Both the position numbers and the translations under genes were made by a program. A stretch of DNA of 62,971 nt, the filler included, from Licmophora abbreviata (taxonomy: Eukaryota): the NCBI GenBank assembly GCA_900291995.1. It is 17 parts of 17 records of this genome, joined end to end, with 100 filler letters (N's around TTAATTAATTAA, not from the genome) between each part and the next. Parts side by side here need not be neighbours in the genome. Positions count along the whole stretch, not along the records: positions 22,675 to 26,024 come from OLMU01006209.1; 16 more parts are not named here. One strand, 5' to 3'. This document shows positions 21,225 to 30,265 of this stretch, piece after piece. Position 1 is the stretch's first letter. The number at the start of each line of letters is the position of its first letter. The notes beneath the pieces were generated by a model. It had not been told where the DNA came from. It did no database searches and worked only from the letters and a program-made list of their open reading frames with translations.

Positions 21225-22574
21225 TACTCACCGCTCTCGTTCACCTTTTCCAGCTGCGGCGCTTCGCCCAACTGCAACCGGTGCACATCCCGGAAGTCGG
21301 CCACTGTGGTACGGCGCGCAAGGGGCGCGAACGTGCGCGGGGCGGTCTCATAGGCGGCACGCAGCGTCTTGTTCGTGACATTCGACAGGATCAGCGGAAA
21401 GTCGGACGTGCTGTGCAACGCCCGCGTGGCCAGTTCATCCCGGCTGAGGCCGCGCACCCGAACCCCTTCGGAGGTGAGGATTTCACGGGCCATCTCGATA
21501 AGCGACAGACCGCGCCAATCCCGCGCCGCCGCTGAGAGTTCAAACCGGCCCGGATCGTGACGATGCAGCAAAGCCGCTTCCACCGCGGCCCGGCGGGTAT
21601 CAACCTCACATTGCCCACCCATGCGGATATGCGGGCGCGTCTCTACAGCACGGTCATTCTGGGCCGCCGCGTCAATCAGCGCGCCCCGCGCCTCATCGAG
21701 ACTGACACCGCGGCGCACGAGATCCACCGTGATCTCTTCACCCACGCCCAATTTGCGCGCGGCATCCTGAATGCCGGCAATCCGTGCCCGCTCCCCTTCC
21801 ATCGCATCCTGCGCGATCCGACGGATGGCGGTTTCATCAAATGGCGCCTGGCTGGTATCAGAACGCGCATCAGCTTGCGCAGAGCGATGGTGGTTATCGA
21901 CGGGATCAGCGTGGGCAACAACTGTTTGCCCGGCCACAGGCTGATCTGCTGAGCGGGTTTCGACGCCATTTGACGCAGACTCCGCTAGGGTTGCTTTTGC
22001 CCCAGCCCTCTGGCCAGACGCGTCTGCACTGTCGATTTGATCCGTCGCTCCGCGCGCAACAGGGGTCTCTATATGCTCATCCATGGTCTTGTCCTTTTCC
22101 TGGTCTGTGACCGCTTCTTCGGTCTCGATGTTTGGCTGTGAGGGTTCGGGCGGTGCCGCGCGGGCCAGTTGGCAAAAGACCTCCGGGGCCCCACCACCCC
22201 GGAAGCCTGCGGCGGCATCTGCCCCTACGGGCACAGCCGACAGCTCCATTGGCTGCCAATCCACGGCGCGCCAGATCGGCACCTGTCCCTCTTCTTCTGT
22301 GACCTCAAAACGGCGCACGCTGTAGCCCACCGAGACATTCCGAATGATGCCCGCTTCCACATCACGCCAGATCGGCTCGACATCGGCCCGTGCCGAGAAG
22401 CGCACGCGCGCCCTGCCCTGCGCCCCATCCTCGCCACTCTCAACCCAGGCGCGCTCCACAACACCCAGCACCTGTCCCAGATCATGCGCGCCATGCGTGT
22501 TCAGAAGCGGCGCGCCCGCATTGAGCCGGCTCAGATCCACATGCCCGGCCTCAAGCGACAGCACCTCATCATAG
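21225..22574 (-). CDS. Prohead protease-major capsid protein fusion, partial at both ends
   Basis: APLLNTH, IRNVSVGY and ELSAVPVGAD protease motifs, then HSTSDFPLILSNVTNK..LEKVNESGE capsid motifs. Confidence 0.9.
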
Positions 22575-22674
22575 NNNNNNNNNNNNNNNNNNNNNNNNNN
22601 NNNNNNNNNNNNNNNNNNTTAATTAATTAANNNNNNNNNNNNNNNNNNNNNNNNNNNNNNNNNNNNNNNNNNNN

Positions 22675-24444
22675 CCAGGTCTCGCCGAGCGAGGTGTTGA
22701 CGAAGGTCTTCATCGTCTCGTCCCCGCCCGCGCGTGCCGACAAAAACGCCTTGGCCATGGCCTCGAGCCGCACCCAGGGCGAATAGATTTCGTTCAAATG
22801 GAAACCCGCCGTGCCATTGAATGGCGCGTCCGCGATCCAATGCCCCTTGGAGATGGCCGACCAGCGGGTTTCATCCTTCCAAGCCGCGTCGCACTCCGCG
22901 CAGTGATAGCGCGCGGTTTCGGGGCGGTGACCGCCGGTTTCATCCTTGTTCCATTTGACCTGCCCCCAGGTCAGGATTTGTTCGTGGCCGCAGTCGGGGC
23001 ACGGCACCCAGAACCGGCGCTGGTCGCTTTCCTCGAATGCCGCCTCGATCCGGCTGGCACCCTTGTTCGTCGGCGTCGAGACCAGCACGATCTTGCGGTT
23101 CCAGAAGGTCACCGTCCGCTTCTTCGCGAGATTAACCGGGTCGCCCTCAGCCCCGGCGCTGAACGGATAACGATCCACCTCGTCGCACAAGAGCAGCCGG
23201 ATCGGTCGGCTCGCCAGCCCCGAGGGCGCGTTGGCACCCACGATGGTCAGGTGCCCGCCCGGGAACCGCTTGTGCAGGATCTTGTTGTTGCCGTCCCGCG
23301 ACTTTGGGTTGGCGATCTTGTCCTGCAAACACGGCGTGTCCCGCGCCATCGGCGAGAAGCGGTCCTTCGACCAGGTTTCCGCGTCGCGCTCGGTCGGCAT
23401 CACCACCATGATCGGTGCCGGGTCCTGATCGATGTGGTAGCCGACGGCGTTGTTGACCATCTCCGTATTATGCGTCGGGATCATGGTCCGCCCCGCCAGA
23501 TAGAGCCGGTTTGGGCTATCGACCTGAATGCAGCGCACAGGCACGCTCTCAACCGGCTCGACAGCGACAATACGGCGCCGCTCGGTTTCCGTTGTCCGCC
23601 GTCCCTCACGGGAGACCTGGCGCGCCCGCTTCCTAGACAGTCGGAACACTGGCGTGTCGTCATAGATCATGAACGAAAACCGCGTCGCGGGTCTTCCGAA
23701 ACGCCGTTCGCCGTCGATCACCACTGACGGCTGCTTGTCGACGGCAGTGAACTTGATGCCCAACGAGGCCAACAATTCGCCAAAGCCATCCGCCAGGCGT
23801 CGGTGAATGGTGATGAACTCGCAGCGGCCGCATTCCGCGATGTAGCCGTCGGTATCCATCAGCCCTTGCAGAAGGGCCATGCGCTGATCTATCGACGCGC
23901 GCAGGTAGGCGGGCGGTATGTGTTTGCCGGTTTCTGGCGTCTTCCGATCCTTCGCCAGCCCCATCTCCCGCAAGCGCAGGCTGAACGGCTTGCCCTCCTC
24001 TAGAACAGGATCAACCGCAGAACCGTGCTTCCATTGCATCGAGAACTGCCGCCCACATTCCGCGCACTGTCCATTTCCGTGGCGACCCAGCACATTCATG
24101 TCATGCCCGCGGCGGCAGATATGCGCTGGCCAAGGCAACGTCGGCTTCAGTGTCAGGATGTGCGGAAACCGCCTGTCCTTCGACGTCACCTCAACCTCGA
24201 TGCCGCATGCGTGCAGATGGTCGGCGATTTCCAGATCATCACGATGACAGGTGATCTGCGAGCCGTAGCTGTGGCCGTCCCCAAGCCAGACACCAAGGGC
24301 ATAGGGTGGGATCGGTAAGGCCTGTTCGGGCAGCTGCAGCGCACCGGCCACAGGGATGGCATATCGGTTCCGCTTTTTCGCGCCGTAGTAATGCGCGGTT
24401 TCAGCAATCTCCTTCGTCATCAGGACCGCCCGGTGGATCGTCAT
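22675..24444 (-). CDS. terL: Intein C-part (with LAGLIDADG endonuclease) fused to terminase large subunit (GpA family) C-extein, 3'-truncated
   Basis: LGVWLGDG and LQGLMDTDG; VRCIQVD..IPTHN|T splice junction (intein ends 23467); then LLLCDEVDRY Walker B, VSTPT and VPCPDCG. Confidence 0.93.
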
Positions 24445-24985
24445 GGAACAGGTCCCTCATCGCGTCCTGCGCGCGCACTGGTGTGTCGCTGTCAACCGCC
24501 CAGAGGTGATCGGCATCGGCGATGATCGAACTGCCGTCTGAAAACCGCACCCGGTAGCAGCGCCGGTTGCGCATTACATCCGTGGCGCCCGTGACGCGGC
24601 AAGGCGCGCCGGTTTCGTCAAACAGGATGTCACCGACCTCGACCTCGCCCATCGTGGTCCAGCCGGTTGGCGTCGCCAGCGGTGTGTCGAGTGCCAGCGC
24701 CTTACCCACCTGTGAACTGGACATGATGACGACAGTTTCTGTCGCTGCATCCGAGACCGCCTCCATGATCCCGCGCTGGTATTCGGCGCGGCTGGTGCGC
24801 CATTGGCCCGGCTCGGCGCTCGCCTCAGAGCTCAGCCTCCTGTTCTGATCGGCCCAGTCACTGATCGTCAGGTCTGGCGGCGGCTTCAGCACCGCCAGTG
24901 CCTTCGCCACCGTCCGCTTCAGGATCGGCGACCCCCGCAAGGTCAATTTCGGTTTCAAATGCAATGTCTGGCTCTGCGAGATCAT
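24401..24985 (-). CDS. terL: Terminase large subunit N-extein fused to intein N-part (start may be a little downstream)
   Basis: PPPDLTISDWAD..PGQW..YQRGIM..SSQVGK then ALALDTPLATPTGW (intein starts 24700) and ADADHLW block B. Confidence 0.92.
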   Translation of the reverse strand: MISQSQTLHLKPKLTLRGSPILKRTVAKALAVLKPPPDLTISDWADQNRRLSSEASAEPGQWRTSRAEYQRGIMEAVSDAATETVVIMSSSQVGKALALDTPLATPTGWTTMGEVEVGDILFDETGAPCRVTGATDVMRNRRCYRVRFSDGSSIIADADHLWAVDSDTPVRAQDAMRDLFHDDPPGGPDDEGDC

Positions 24986-25421
24986 TGAGCACCTCGCGGA
25001 TCGCAGTTCGGATCAGGTTGCGGGTATCTCCGACGCTGGGTTGGTCAAAGGCCTGTGGGGCCAGCCGATCCGGCAGCGACAGCAGGCGGGTTCTGAGAAG
25101 CGCAAGGACCGCAATCCACGCCGCCTCAATCTGGTCAGCTGCGATCAACGAATGGCGCTTTTCTTCGGCCTCCATCTCGGCAAGGTCTGCCCGCGCCCGG
25201 ATGAAGCGCGCGCGCTCGGCCGCATAGCCCGGGGCACCTGCTTGTGCCTTGGCGGCCTGGTCTCGCAGATAGCGCACATAGCCGCGCACCGAGCCGATCA
25301 GGTCATACTGGCCGCGATCGGCCTTCGGGATCACGCCCTCGCGGCTCAGTTGCTGAACCCGCCGCTCCGAGAGGTCCAGAAGCCGCGCGATCACGCCGAT
25401 GGGTTGGGTTGCCGACGACAT
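24858..25421 (-). CDS. terS: Terminase small subunit (Nu1-like)
   Basis: N-terminal HTH (IARLLDLSERRVQQL), YDL..YVRYLR, coiled coil; directly upstream of terL. Confidence 0.88.
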   Translation of the reverse strand: MSSATQPIGVIARLLDLSERRVQQLSREGVIPKADRGQYDLIGSVRGYVRYLRDQAAKAQAGAPGYAAERARFIRARADLAEMEAEEKRHSLIAADQIEAAWIAVLALLRTRLLSLPDRLAPQAFDQPSVGDTRNLIRTAIREVLNDLAEPDIAFETEIDLAGVADPEADGGEGTGGAEAAARPDDQ

Positions 25422-25534
25422 GAAGTGATCCCAAGCCCCCGAGCAAAGCCATGTAATTGCTGCGATTATAGTGGATGAACCTGCCCGGTAGAGCGAAGCT
25501 GTGGGCATTGCACGACGCATCCACAGAGCCCACC

Positions 25535-26012: not shown

Positions 26013-26215
26013 TCGAAAGCAATANNNNNNNNNNNNNNNNNNNNNNNNNNNNNNNNNNNNNNNNNNNNTTAATTAATTAANNNNNNNNNNNNNNNNNNNN
26101 NNNNNNNNNNNNNNNNNNNNNNNNAATATGGCTCTGATTTTACTACGATAATCAGCACAGTAGAGCGAAGGTCATTGCACGAAAACGATGCAACTCACCG
26201 AAGGACGCCACCCCG

Positions 26216-28928: not shown

Positions 28929-30265
28929 GTCCCACCTCCCGTTTCCGTTCGACGTCGTCGAAGCTCTGCCCTGTTTCAGACAACTGTGCTTCACGGCCTG
29001 TGAACTGTTGCCAACGACGGACGATGACATCGACGTATTTCGGATCGAGTTCGATCAACGACGCGTGGCGCCCCGTTTTTTCAGCAGCGATCAGCGTCGT
29101 GCCGCTGCCACCAAAGGGGTCGAACACAAGATCGCCTTTACGACTTGAGTTCCGGATAGCACGTTCGACCAGCGCCACTGGCTTCATGGTGGGGTGCAGG
29201 TCATTCTTTGAGGGCCGCTGGATGTTCCAGACATCGCCCTGATCCCGATCACCGCACCAGTGGCNNNNNNNNNNNNNNNNNNNNNNNNNNNNNNNNNNNN
29301 NNNNNNNNTTAATTAATTAANNNNNNNNNNNNNNNNNNNNNNNNNNNNNNNNNNNNNNNNNNNNGTTTCACCCCCTCAGGCCAGCCATAGAGGATCGGCT
29401 CGTATTGCCGCTGATAATCGGCTCGCCCCAATGTGAAGCGGTCCTTCGCCCAGATGATGAAGGTCGACCAATGGCCACCTGCGGACTTGAATGCTGCCTG
29501 CAGCGTCTGCAGCTCGCTGGACGACATGCAGATGTAAACCGCGCCATCTGTGTGCATGTTGATCAGCACGCAGGCGTCGTAGAGAAACTGCCCGAATGCA
29601 TCGCCCAGGGAATCGTTCTTGATACGACGGGCCTTGCCCGCTTTTTCGGCCCCAACGCCACCGGCGTAATCAACGTTATAGGGTGGATCGCAAAAACAGA
29701 GATCCGCTTTTACGCCCCCAAGTACCTTCTCGTAGTCGGTCACAACGGTGCTGTCGCCGCAAAGCAGCCGGTGGTTGCCGAGCACCCAGAGATCGCCCGG
29801 GCGGCTGATCGGATCTTCGGGCGTTTCCGGTACATCGTCCTCACCCTCCTGTGGGCCGATGCCTTCCTCGAGGCTCGTCATCAGCGCGTTCAGCTCATCG
29901 TCGGTGAAGCCGGTCAGGCCAAGGTCAAAATCCGCCTCCAACAAGTCCGCCAGTTCGAGGTTCAAGAGGTCCTTGTCCCACTCGGCATTCTCGCTGGAGC
30001 GGTTGTCCATGATCCGGAACGCGCGCGCCTGATTGGCTGTCAGCCCCTTGGCGACATGCACCGGCGCTGTCTTGAAGCCGAGTTTGCGCGCCGCCTCGAG
30101 CCGTGTGTGGCCTGCCAGCACGACCATGGCCTCATCCACCACGATGGGCTGGCGCCAGCCAAACTCCTGGATCGAGGCCGCAACCGTGGAAACTGCCTCA
30201 GCATTGTGCCGTGGGTTGCGCGCATAGGGAATGATCTGCTCGAGCGGCAGGTCGACGACGTCCAT
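28909..30265 (-). CDS. ParB-N domain / N6-N4 DNA methyltransferase fusion (one gene across the spacer)
   Basis: IPYARNPR..AGHTRL (ParB), CDPPY, HPTMKP and DPFGGSGTT; the two contig ends join in frame (VK-R-HW). Confidence 0.92.

What the first reader, a model, noticed from the sequence alone, without database searches (positions are those of the whole stretch)
23464..24703. Candidate natural split class 3 intein in terminase, with the homing endonuclease on the C-half
Seen: the TerL Walker A motif (SSQVGK|T) is interrupted by an intein that starts with Ala (24700), ends HN|T (23467) and has Trp in block B (DHLW), Cys in block F (VRCIQV) and Thr in block G (PTHN). It is encoded by two ORFs that overlap by 44 nt in +1 frame: a 99-aa IntN and a 326-aa IntC. 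The second ORF has its own ATG (24444), a GAGGG SD-like site 9 nt upstream and an in-frame TGA five codons upstream. IntN ends in an acidic tail (DDPPGGPDDEGDC) and IntC begins basic (HR..KKRNR). Established: Ala1 plus WCT defines class 3 inteins, and split-intein halves often associate by charge complementarity. The natural split inteins I know are class 1 and lack a fused nuclease. Inference: an active packaging ATPase would form only by protein trans-splicing (or +1 recoding), which could gate virion packaging.
Basis: partly seen in the sequence, partly recalled or inferred. Interest (0 to 1): 0.92.

Follow-up and report, generated by a model that had tools for sequence, protein, structure and literature searches.

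The report
Split class 3 intein in terminase
The DNA-packaging enzyme gene of a group of marine Rhodobacterales prophages is stably encoded as two overlapping genes broken inside a self-splicing protein element, so the enzyme is most likely stitched together after translation by a rare kind of split intein that still carries its own homing nuclease.

Summary
A GpA-type large terminase is interrupted between GK and T of Walker A by an intein with Ala1, Trp B12, Cys F4 and Thr G5-His-Asn. The intein is encoded by two ORFs that overlap by 44 nt, the second in the +1 frame.

The break is not an error. It is present in 68 of 68 close related loci (35 distinct sequences, synonymous divergence about 1). 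All 167 more distant loci are contiguous. Contigs of two DNA runs and one RNA library show no indel at the junction.

Both exteins and both intein halves are under strong purifying selection (dN/dS 0.065-0.13). The coding frame switches exactly at a conserved ATG (TTG once). A divergent lineage has its ATG three codons away and no shared slippery sequence.

The two halves are predicted to form one Hint domain (ipSAE 0.87, best control 0.33).

Best reading: a naturally split, trans-splicing class 3 intein. It is broken in the loop after block B, and the LAGLIDADG nuclease stays on the C-half. Splicing itself is not shown.

One natural split class 3 intein is published (AceL NrdHF, 2020). This scan noted other split terminase inteins on unrelated DNA. 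The charge-complementarity idea is not supported.

The parts
24858..25520 (-). Small terminase subunit gene, upstream of ORF1 on the same contig
   Evidence: phrog_57 terminase small subunit, E 3.3e-30
24701..24985 (-). N-extein: terminase large subunit residues up to Walker A ...SSSQVGK. The true start may lie some 20-25 codons downstream of 24985.
   Evidence: GpA_ATPase profile 1-45. [quoted passage not shown] NCBI and other sources-174 aa versions.
24404..24700 (-). IntN (99 aa): block A ALALDTP (24700-24680), block B DADHLW with Trp B12 (24517-24500), then a poorly conserved tail. The stop is TGA 24403-24401.
   Evidence: Residues 6-81 of the query align to residues 1-76 of the class 3 DnaB mini-intein 6BS8, E 6e-24. 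dN/dS 0.128 for A1..DLF.
24453..24458 (-). Purine-rich SD-like GAGGGA, 8 nt upstream of the ORF2 ATG
   Evidence: Kept as GAGGGA, GAAGGA, GAAGGG, GGGGGA or GGGAGA in all 29 sequences. It is weak: -4.5 to -8.4 kcal/mol, and a median 16% of internal windows are as strong.
24442..24444 (-). Start codon of ORF2 (IntC), embedded in the ORF1 codons CAT-GAC
   Evidence: ATG in 27 and TTG in 1 of 28 distinct junction sequences. Selection switches from the ORF1 frame to the ORF2 frame at this point.
24401..24444 (-). 44-nt overlap of ORF1 and ORF2 (ORF2 in the +1 frame)
   Evidence: dN/dS is 0.53 in the ORF1 frame against 0.21 in the ORF2 frame.
24331..24441 (-). N-terminal about 38 residues of IntC (TIHRAVLMTKEIAE...RNRYAIPVAGALQL). 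These are Hint-domain strands and a helix that lie before the nuclease domain.
   Evidence: IntC residues 3-38 are in the confident predicted interface with IntN. The equivalent residues 93-122 of the contiguous sister intein fold as four strands plus a helix of the Hint lobe.
23539..24330 (-). LAGLIDADG homing endonuclease domain: motif 1 LGVWLGDG (24297-24274) and motif 2 LLQGLMDTDG (23874-23845). A conserved Cys/His cluster (C110, H114, C127, C130) lies between them.
   Evidence: PF14528 LAGLIDADG_3. Matches PI-SceI, E 1e-5. The motif Gly and Asp residues are invariant or nearly so in 33 sequences. dN/dS 0.088 for IntC+HEN.
23467..23538 (-). Blocks F and G: VRCIQV (Cys F4 = ORF2 C305, 23532-23530) ... 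IPTHN (Thr G5, His, terminal Asn326)
   Evidence: Aligns to 6BS8 residues 103-139, with C305 on C118, the proven initiating nucleophile of M. smegmatis DnaBi1 (PMC10559147). C305, T324, H325 and N326 are invariant in 33 sequences.
22675..23466 (-). C-extein: the terminase from Thr+1 (TEMVNN...), cut by the contig end at 22675
   Evidence: GpA_ATPase 40-247 and the start of GpA_nuclease. 56% identical to Paracoccus phage TerL from T64. In L005 the same ORF is 899 aa with complete ATPase and nuclease domains and is followed by a lambda-family portal. dN/dS 0.080.

Best explanation
This is a naturally split class 3 intein that a clade of temperate phages of Rhodobacterales (families Roseobacteraceae and Paracoccaceae by the treekit labels) needs to make its large terminase.

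Proposed steps:
1. The terS-terL mRNA is translated into two polypeptides. ORF1 gives TerL residues 1-95 (ending in Walker A GK) fused to IntN.
2. A second initiation at the internal ATG, in the +1 frame inside ORF1, gives IntC. IntC holds the last strands of the N-lobe of the Hint fold, a LAGLIDADG homing endonuclease and blocks F and G. It is fused to the rest of TerL, which starts with Thr+1.
3. IntN and IntC associate into one Hint domain.
4. Cys F4 (C305) attacks the K95-A96 peptide bond. The N-extein is passed to Thr+1, Asn326 cyclises, and an O-to-N shift yields contiguous TerL with an intact GKT P-loop. Both nucleophiles and the Asn sit on the C-fragment.
5. The released IntN-IntC complex keeps the nuclease, so the element can still home into intein-less alleles.

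Shown here: the architecture, its conservation, selection on every part, the start codon, the catalytic residues and the predicted association. Inferred: initiation at the ATG, trans-splicing and nuclease activity.
For: (a) The break is conserved. 68 of 68 close loci (35 distinct sequences; IntN 69-96% and the first 117 aa of IntC 67-98% identical to the window) are shifted by +1. 167 of 167 distant loci are contiguous (earlier subsets). Separate ORF1-only and ORF2-only proteins are on record from many sources, including NCBI annotations.

(b) There is no indel at the junction in contigs of DNA run X1, DNA metagenome X2 or RNA library X15.

(c) Selection acts on all parts. dN/dS is 0.065 for the N-extein, 0.128 for IntN, 0.088 for IntC+HEN and 0.080 for the C-extein, at dS about 0.85-1.16, in 29 sequences. 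An N-extein of 95 residues is useless unless it is joined to the rest.

(d) The frame switch is at the ATG. Upstream of it the ORF1 frame gives 0.35, and the ORF2 frame has stops in most sequences or a ratio above 1. Downstream, the ORF2 frame fits better. The start is ATG in 27 and TTG in 1 of 28 distinct junctions, while ORF2 residues 2-3 vary.

(e) The divergent lineage L185 (= P0006, about 65% identical) keeps the +1 break. Its ATG lies three codons further upstream, its overlap is 119 nt, and the loop DNA between is not alignable with the main clade. The ORF1 stop lies 41-53 codons later in L014, L015 and L051.

(f) The catalytic set is intact and invariant: A1, H-L-W in block B, C305, T324-H325-N326, and Thr or Ser at +1. 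C305 aligns with C118 of DnaBi1.

(g) Predicted complex of IntC(1-331) with IntN(91-194): ipSAE 0.87, 0.87 and 0.86 against a best control of 0.33. The mark was reached by 116 of 157 solved complexes and 2 of 215 mismatched pairs. The runs share at least 91% of contacts, and the partner's pLDDT is at least 77. Halves of one domain with solved relatives can pass from likeness alone.

(h) The closest solved relative, DnaBi1, trans-splices when cut artificially (PMC10559147, text read).

(i) In a complete chromosome (L005) the C-extein is a full GpA ATPase plus nuclease, next to a portal gene.
Against: No protein-level evidence exists for two polypeptides or for a spliced product. The SD-like site is weak: 4-29% (median 16%) of internal windows pair with the anti-SD as well, and in L185 the value is only -4.0 kcal/mol. 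So efficient independent initiation is not assured.

The break is not at the usual split site (the nuclease insertion loop) but about 40 residues before the nuclease domain. No engineered cut at this site came up in the papers I read. The complex prediction may reflect memory of solved cis-inteins. The RNA-library contig does not prove transcription and cannot exclude rare edited or slipped transcripts. The sequences are related, so counts of loci are not independent events.
Confidence: 0.72

Rival explanations
1. Programmed +1 ribosomal frameshifting (or another recoding event) near the ATG makes one contiguous precursor that splices in cis. The internal ATG would then be incidental, or would serve only to express the nuclease half.
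For: ORF2 is in the +1 frame and overlaps ORF1 in every shifted locus. So a frameshift is geometrically possible everywhere I could see DNA. A purine-rich SD-like element lies upstream, as in prfB-type shifts (recalled). The SD is weak for an initiation site.
Against: There is no homopolymer or known slippery motif. The only window open to a shift in most loci is about 21 nt, between the TGA in the ORF2 frame and the conserved HR. Its sequence varies (CTG TTC CAT GAC, CGC TTT GAT GAA, CTG TTT CTT GAA). It has no counterpart in L185, where this DNA is not alignable. The Met codon is conserved although its neighbours vary. No in-frame stop or other usual stimulator of +1 shifts lies at the site.
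Confidence: 0.08
2. The terminase is dead. The frameshift is a disabling mutation carried in cryptic prophages, perhaps spread further by the still-active homing endonuclease. No joined enzyme is made.
For: Frameshifts in prophage genes are common. Most copies come from bacterial genomes and MAGs or from predicted proviruses. The window's contig is short and truncated.
Against: dN/dS is 0.065-0.13 on both exteins and both intein halves, at dS about 1. There are 35 distinct sequences and no further disabling mutation in ORF1 or ORF2 in the 26-29 sequences examined for each region. The 888-902 aa ORF2 is intact in genomes of about ten genera. Indels in the loop kept both frames open. The catalytic residues are invariant.
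Confidence: 0.06
3. Two polypeptides are made and the intein halves only hold them together. The terminase works as a non-covalent heterodimer without splicing.
For: Split-intein halves bind tightly (PMC7891396 abstract). The predicted complex is confident.
Against: The cut lies between Lys and Thr of the Walker A P-loop, and an intein of about 425 residues would stay wedged in the ATP site. All residues needed only for splicing chemistry (Cys F4, Thr G5, His, Asn, Thr/Ser +1) are invariant across split and contiguous relatives.
Confidence: 0.05
4. The break is an assembly or sequencing artefact of this window.
For: The window is a draft made of short contigs.
Against: The same break is present in 68 loci from isolate genomes, MAGs, IMG/VR and metagenomes. 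Contigs of three runs show no indel.
Confidence: 0.01

Closest known systems
AceL NrdHF intein (Hoffmann et al. 2020, PMC7891396; abstract and sections 4, 6, 7 read)
   Same: Both are naturally split class 3 inteins of probable phage origin. Both have Ala at position 1 and a block F (C2:4) cysteine, with both nucleophiles on the C-fragment. IntN is about 98-99 aa in each.
   Different: AceL NrdHF has MCT instead of WCT and lacks two conserved histidines. It is broken at the usual nuclease-insertion site. It has a 48-aa IntC and a free-standing GIY-YIG gene between the halves, and it sits in a ribonucleotide reductase gene. Here the WCT and HN motifs are canonical. The break is about 40 residues before the nuclease. 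The LAGLIDADG domain stays in frame inside a 326-aa IntC. The two genes overlap, and the host gene is a GpA terminase.
M. smegmatis DnaBi1 (PDB 6BS8) and M. chimaera DnaB (6RIX) class 3 mini-inteins; artificially split DnaBi1 (PMC10559147, text read)
   Same: These are the closest solved relatives by sequence (E 6e-24 for IntN, 2e-7 to 9e-8 for blocks F-G). A1, W, C118/C305 and THN align residue for residue. DnaBi1 cut into two pieces trans-splices, and this requires C118.
   Different: They are cis-splicing mini-inteins without a nuclease, in a helicase. The artificial cut is at 94/95 in the disordered nuclease loop. The natural break here maps to about residue 72-76 of DnaBi1, inside a loop that is about 20 residues longer in the terminase inteins.
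Contiguous class 3 LAGLIDADG inteins in the Walker A (GK|T) of phage terminases (Kelley et al. 2016, PMC5050341, passages; bioRxiv 10.1101/2025.01.02.630785, passages) and the contiguous relatives found here
   Same: The 'classic' P-loop insertion point, the splicing class and the nuclease type are the same. P0053 and P0094 are the contiguous sister group (72% IntN identity).
   Different: Those are single ORFs. In this clade the loop after block B carries a +1 break with its own start codon.
Fractured genes and atypically split terminase inteins (Dassa et al. 2009, PMC2677866, passages; AceL-TerL and GOS-TerL recalled, not read)
   Same: A phage terminase is split by an intein. The GOS terminase intein is also broken away from the usual N4-C2 region.
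   Different: Those have a free-standing nuclease gene between the halves and a very short IntN. AceL-TerL and GOS-TerL are class 1 by recall; no paper that I read gives their class. Here there is no intervening gene, and the nuclease is part of IntC.

Membership tests
Class 3 inteins | No Cys/Ser/Thr nucleophile at intein position 1 | tested here: met
   Ala96 of ORF1 follows GK. The boundary is fixed by the intein-less Paracoccus phage TerL. A96 is invariant in 27 sequences.
Class 3 inteins | Trp at block B position 12, Cys at block F position 4, Thr at block G position 5 (WCT; definition in PMC5050341 and PMC7891396) | tested here: met
   DADHLW, VRCIQV and IPTHN. W162, C305 and T324 are invariant. 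C305 aligns with C118 of DnaBi1, and W aligns with the W of 6BS8/6RIX.
Class 3 inteins | Splicing through a branched thioester on the block F cysteine | not testable with these tools
   Needs C305A and related mutants and detection of the intermediate.
Naturally split (trans-splicing) inteins | The two intein parts are encoded by separate genes, each fused to one extein | tested here: met
   Two ORFs in different frames in 68 of 68 close loci. The start codon is conserved. Separate proteins are on record.
Naturally split (trans-splicing) inteins | Each part is translated on its own (own initiation site) | tested here: inconclusive
   ATG or TTG is conserved, and the selection switch lies at it. 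The SD-like site is weak. There are no protein or ribosome data.
Naturally split (trans-splicing) inteins | The parts associate and ligate the exteins | not testable with these tools
   Association is predicted (ipSAE 0.87 against a best control of 0.33). Ligation is inferred from selection on the N-extein.
Naturally split (trans-splicing) inteins | [quoted passage not shown] | tested here: not met
   The break lies in the loop right after the block B strand. Four Hint strands and a helix follow in IntC before the nuclease.
LAGLIDADG homing endonuclease inteins | Two LAGLIDADG motifs with their acidic residues, inserted in the Hint domain | tested here: met
   PF14528. LGVWLGDG and LLQGLMDTDG are conserved. 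Matches PI-SceI. Nuclease activity was not tested.
GpA-type (lambda-like) large terminase | GpA ATPase and GpA nuclease domains | tested here: met
   PF05876 is split 1-45 and 40-247 over the two ORFs, and PF20454 is partial in the window. Both are complete in L005.
Fractured genes (Dassa 2009) | Free-standing endonuclease gene between the two gene halves | tested here: not met
   The halves overlap by 44-203 nt, and the nuclease is in frame within IntC.

The most novel reading that the evidence does not exclude
A whole clade of Rhodobacterales temperate phages depends on protein trans-splicing by a canonical-WCT class 3 intein. The intein is broken at a non-canonical site (between blocks N3 and N4) and has kept an intact, probably active LAGLIDADG nuclease fused to its C-half. 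That would make it a split intein that is still mobile. The split state may have arisen more than once in the same loop. P0007 and P0008 are frame-broken forms that the quick tree places apart from the main clade.
Probability: 0.6. Interest if true: 0.78.

Novelty: new variant of a known kind. Interest (0 to 1): 0.7.

Why it matters
In the literature I could search only one natural split class 3 intein is described. It has atypical motifs and no attached nuclease, and its authors found no split form among 1701 class 3 inteins in nr.

If the present family splices in trans, four things follow. Split class 3 inteins would not be a one-off. A Hint domain would be shown to tolerate breakage in nature in the loop after block B. 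A split intein would be shown to retain its homing nuclease, a stage that models of intein decay place before nuclease loss. And there would be culturable lysogens, with dozens of natural sequence variants, for study and for protein-ligation tools in which both nucleophiles sit on one fragment.

It would also mean that virion production in these prophages requires two polypeptides to meet.

Tried and rejected
- No whole genome is held for the window, so searches of 'own' and 'family' were not possible.
- A search of 401 genomes of the order around G001 found only G001 itself and one weak partial hit.
- I did not get the DNA of the divergent split proteins P0007 and P0008. Scans of viral contigs and metagenome contigs with the P0007 intein part did not return its contig. 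The P0006 lineage was recovered as L185.
- P0005 (1111 aa, 75% identical) looked like a contiguous close relative. It is N-terminally truncated inside IntC and tells nothing about the junction.
- The SD test did not single out the site.
- The careful tree search did not finish. Only the quick tree is reported. It needs 3 changes of the split label, but its well-supported branches force only 1, so the number of origins is open.
- Run X16 does not cover the junction.
- I found no published report of this arrangement. That rests only on the four full-text searches named above and on the passages read. Supplements of the papers were not opened.
Full report
**What is in the sequence.**

On the minus strand, ORF1 (24985..24401, 194 aa) carries the start of a lambda-type (GpA) large terminase up to the Walker A residues SSSQVGK. 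It then continues with ALALDTP...DADHLW...DLFHDDPPGGPDDEGDC and a stop.

ORF2 starts at ATG 24444, in the +1 frame, 44 nt before the ORF1 stop. It reads MTIHRAVLMTKEIAE..., then a LAGLIDADG domain, then VRCIQV...IPTHN, and then TEMVNN... of the terminase.

Pfam finds GpA_ATPase positions 1-45 in ORF1. In ORF2 it finds positions 40-247, the start of the GpA nuclease domain and LAGLIDADG_3.

The terminase of the intein-less Paracoccus phage vB_PyeM_Pyei1 aligns as ...QVG-A|TEM... across the site. This fixes the intein as A96 of ORF1 to N326 of ORF2.

The window itself is a chain of short contigs joined by N44-TTAATTAATTAA-N44 linkers. The relevant contig is 22675-26024 and holds terS, ORF1 and a truncated ORF2.

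**The break is real and old.**

Searches with IntC and with two divergent relatives brought in loci from isolate genomes, MAGs, IMG/VR and metagenomes. The same contig can appear under several locus ids.

I classified all 265 loci held by the frames of the tblastn matches to IntN and to the first 117 residues of IntC:
- 68 loci (35 distinct sequences) have the +1 shift. IntN is 69-96% and IntC 67-98% identical to the window.
- 167 loci (130 distinct) are in one frame. IntC is 32-55% identical to the window.
- 30 loci are incomplete.
- No close relative is contiguous, and no distant one is broken.

Named hosts include Thalassovita, Thalassobius, Yoonia, Marivivens, Seohaeicola, Defluviimonas and Albidovulum.

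Contigs of the probable source run X1, of DNA metagenome X2 and of RNA library X15 cross 24400-24460 without any inserted or missing letter. X1 is not independent of the window. The RNA contig does not prove transcription.

Run X2 also holds a low-depth contig that joins 24710 to 23447 with 28 other letters between. This is what a related intein-less allele with an exact empty site would give.

**Selection.**

I used the window and 28 loci, about one per distinct junction sequence. Duplicates and L048 were left out, and L185 was not yet known.

dN/dS by region, with dS between 0.85 and 1.16 for the four main regions:

| Region | dN/dS |
|---|---|
| N-extein | 0.065 |
| IntN | 0.128 |
| IntC plus nuclease | 0.088 |
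| C-extein | 0.080 |

- In the 13 codons before the ATG, the ORF1 frame gives 0.35. The ORF2 frame has stops in most sequences and a ratio above 1 in the rest.
- In the 14 overlap codons, the ORF2 frame gives 0.21 and the ORF1 frame 0.53.

So the translated frame changes at the ATG. The 95-residue N-extein is kept under selection as strict as that on the rest of the terminase. That makes sense only if the N-extein is joined to the rest.

**Start codon against slippery site.**

In 28 distinct junction sequences the start is ATG 27 times and TTG once, while ORF2 residues 2 and 3 vary.

The T of the ATG is a third codon position in ORF1 and never varies. For comparison, 80 of 85 third positions vary in IntN.

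A purine-rich element (GAGGGA and variants) is always present. It is weak, at -4.5 to -8.4 kcal/mol. A median 16% of internal windows score as well.

The upstream stop in the ORF2 frame and the ORF1 stop are not fixed. Several loci are open for about 45 codons upstream. In L014, L015 and L051 the ORF1 stop lies 41-53 codons later.

The divergent lineage L185 encodes P0006 and a P0164-like ORF1. It keeps the +1 relation, but its ATG is three codons further upstream relative to the conserved GGCG-TCCTG anchor. Its overlap is 119 nt, and the loop DNA has several indels and no similarity to the main clade.

I see no homopolymer and no known shift motif. The only window in which a shift could work in most loci is about 21 nt long and variable in sequence. 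This speaks for independent initiation and against a programmed frameshift. It does not exclude one.

**Class and fold.**

The best solved relatives are the class 3 DnaB mini-inteins 6BS8 and 6RIX:
- IntN residues 1-76 align to their residues 1-76 (E 6e-24).
- IntC residues 290-326 align to 6BS8 residues 103-139.
- C305 falls on C118, the proven initiating nucleophile. THN falls on THN.

A1, the block B His-Leu-Trp, C305, T324, H325 and N326 are invariant in the alignments. The +1 residue is Thr in the 6 other split ORF2 proteins read. It is Ser in P0009 and Thr in the other three contiguous relatives whose sequences I read.

I made an AlphaFold model of the contiguous sister intein, P0094, with an alignment of 35 rows (mean pLDDT 89.8, pTM 0.90):
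- The block B strand (model residues 71-76) is followed by a 16-residue loop of low confidence (block mean 63).
- Then come the strand GVLTT, a helix and three more strands.
- Only then does the nuclease start.

The break of the window's clade maps into that loop. IntC therefore carries about 38 residues of the Hint N-lobe, the nuclease and the C-lobe.

This is not the usual break point of natural split inteins (PMC2677866, passages). It is also not the 94/95 cut used to split DnaBi1 artificially (PMC10559147).

**Predicted association.**

IntC(1-331) with IntN(91-194), each given with its alignment, scored ipSAE 0.87, 0.87 and 0.86 against a best control of 0.33.
- The mark was reached by 116 of 157 solved complexes and 2 of 215 mismatched pairs.
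- The runs agree in at least 91% of contacts, and the partner's pLDDT is at least 77.
- The interface uses IntC 3-38 and 289-328 and IntN 93-170. The ORF1 tail 171-194 is not in it.
- These are halves of a domain with solved relatives, so the pass shows likeness to a Hint fold rather than proof of binding.

**Phylogeny.**

In a quick maximum-likelihood tree of the IntC region (76 rows; the careful search did not finish), the main split clade (21 rows, SH-aLRT 96) plus P0006 is sister to the contiguous P0053 and P0094.

P0007 and P0008 start at or out of frame over the same place. The tree places them elsewhere with weaker support. The label needs three changes on this tree, but the well-supported branches force only one. 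One origin or several both remain possible.

**Literature.**

- Hoffmann et al. 2020 describe AceL NrdHF as the first natural split class 3 intein. It has 98 + 48 aa, MCT instead of WCT, and a free-standing GIY-YIG gene between the halves. They found no split form among 1701 class 3 inteins (PMC7891396; abstract and sections 4, 6, 7).
- Class 3 LAGLIDADG inteins at the GK|T site of phage terminases are well known as single ORFs (PMC5050341 and bioRxiv 10.1101/2025.01.02.630785, passages).
- I found no report of a split class 3 intein with the nuclease retained in IntC, nor of this Rhodobacterales family, in four full-text searches.
- Earlier notes of this scan (unchecked AI notes) describe other split terminase inteins on unrelated DNA, including class 3-type ones with a nuclease gene between the halves. 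A look-up by sequence found no look-alike of this one.

**Verdict.**

The most likely explanation (about 0.72) is a naturally split, trans-splicing class 3 intein with a fused homing nuclease, fixed in a clade of temperate phages.

The rivals are +1 recoding (0.08), a dead gene (0.06), non-covalent complementation (0.05) and an artefact (0.01).

Noticed in passing
window, 16 sites, e.g. 22575-22674 and 26025-26124: The window is a chain of short contigs joined by linkers of 44 N + TTAATTAATTAA + 44 N (a six-frame stop spacer). Genes on either side of a linker need not be neighbours. ORF2 is truncated by one such joint.
   Followed up: partly
window 23447-24710 (run X2): A low-depth metagenome contig joins 24710 to 23447 with 28 other letters between. 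This is the length expected for a related intein-less terminase allele with an exact empty site. Intein-containing and empty alleles would then co-occur in one sample.
   Followed up: no
window about 24117-24055 (ORF2 residues 110-130): A conserved Cys/His cluster (C110, H114, C127, C130; CRRGHD...CAEC) lies between the two LAGLIDADG motifs and looks like a small zinc-binding insert. It is nearly invariant in 33 relatives but absent from the contiguous sister inteins P0053 and P0094.
   Followed up: no
proteins P0007 and P0008: Two more divergent terminase proteins (57-59% identical in the intein) also begin at, or out of frame over, the same loop. The quick tree does not group them with the main split clade. 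This may mean independent breaks at the same place. Their DNA could not be fetched.
   Followed up: partly
L014, L015, L051; L185 1288-1406: In some lineages the ORF1 stop is lost, and ORF1 runs 39-53 codons further out of frame over IntC. Its C-terminal tail is therefore highly variable.
   Followed up: yes
protein P0161: This is an ORF1-like protein of 271 aa. After ...RAMRDL its sequence runs into text that resembles out-of-frame or degenerate terminase C-extein. It may be a derivative with most of the intein deleted.
   Followed up: no
window 21225-22564 (-), neighbouring contig: This is a fused head-maturation protease and major head protein (phrog_4523, E 3e-118).
   Followed up: no
window 29365-30265 (-): This is a ParB-like nuclease domain fused to a DNA methyltransferase (phrog_498, E 9e-103), on another contig of the chain.
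   Followed up: no
IntN, window 24404-24700; The N-half of this terminase intein is 55-70% identical to the N-parts of class 3 inteins in actinobacterial DnaB helicases. This fits exchange of this intein lineage between P-loop hosts.
   Followed up: no
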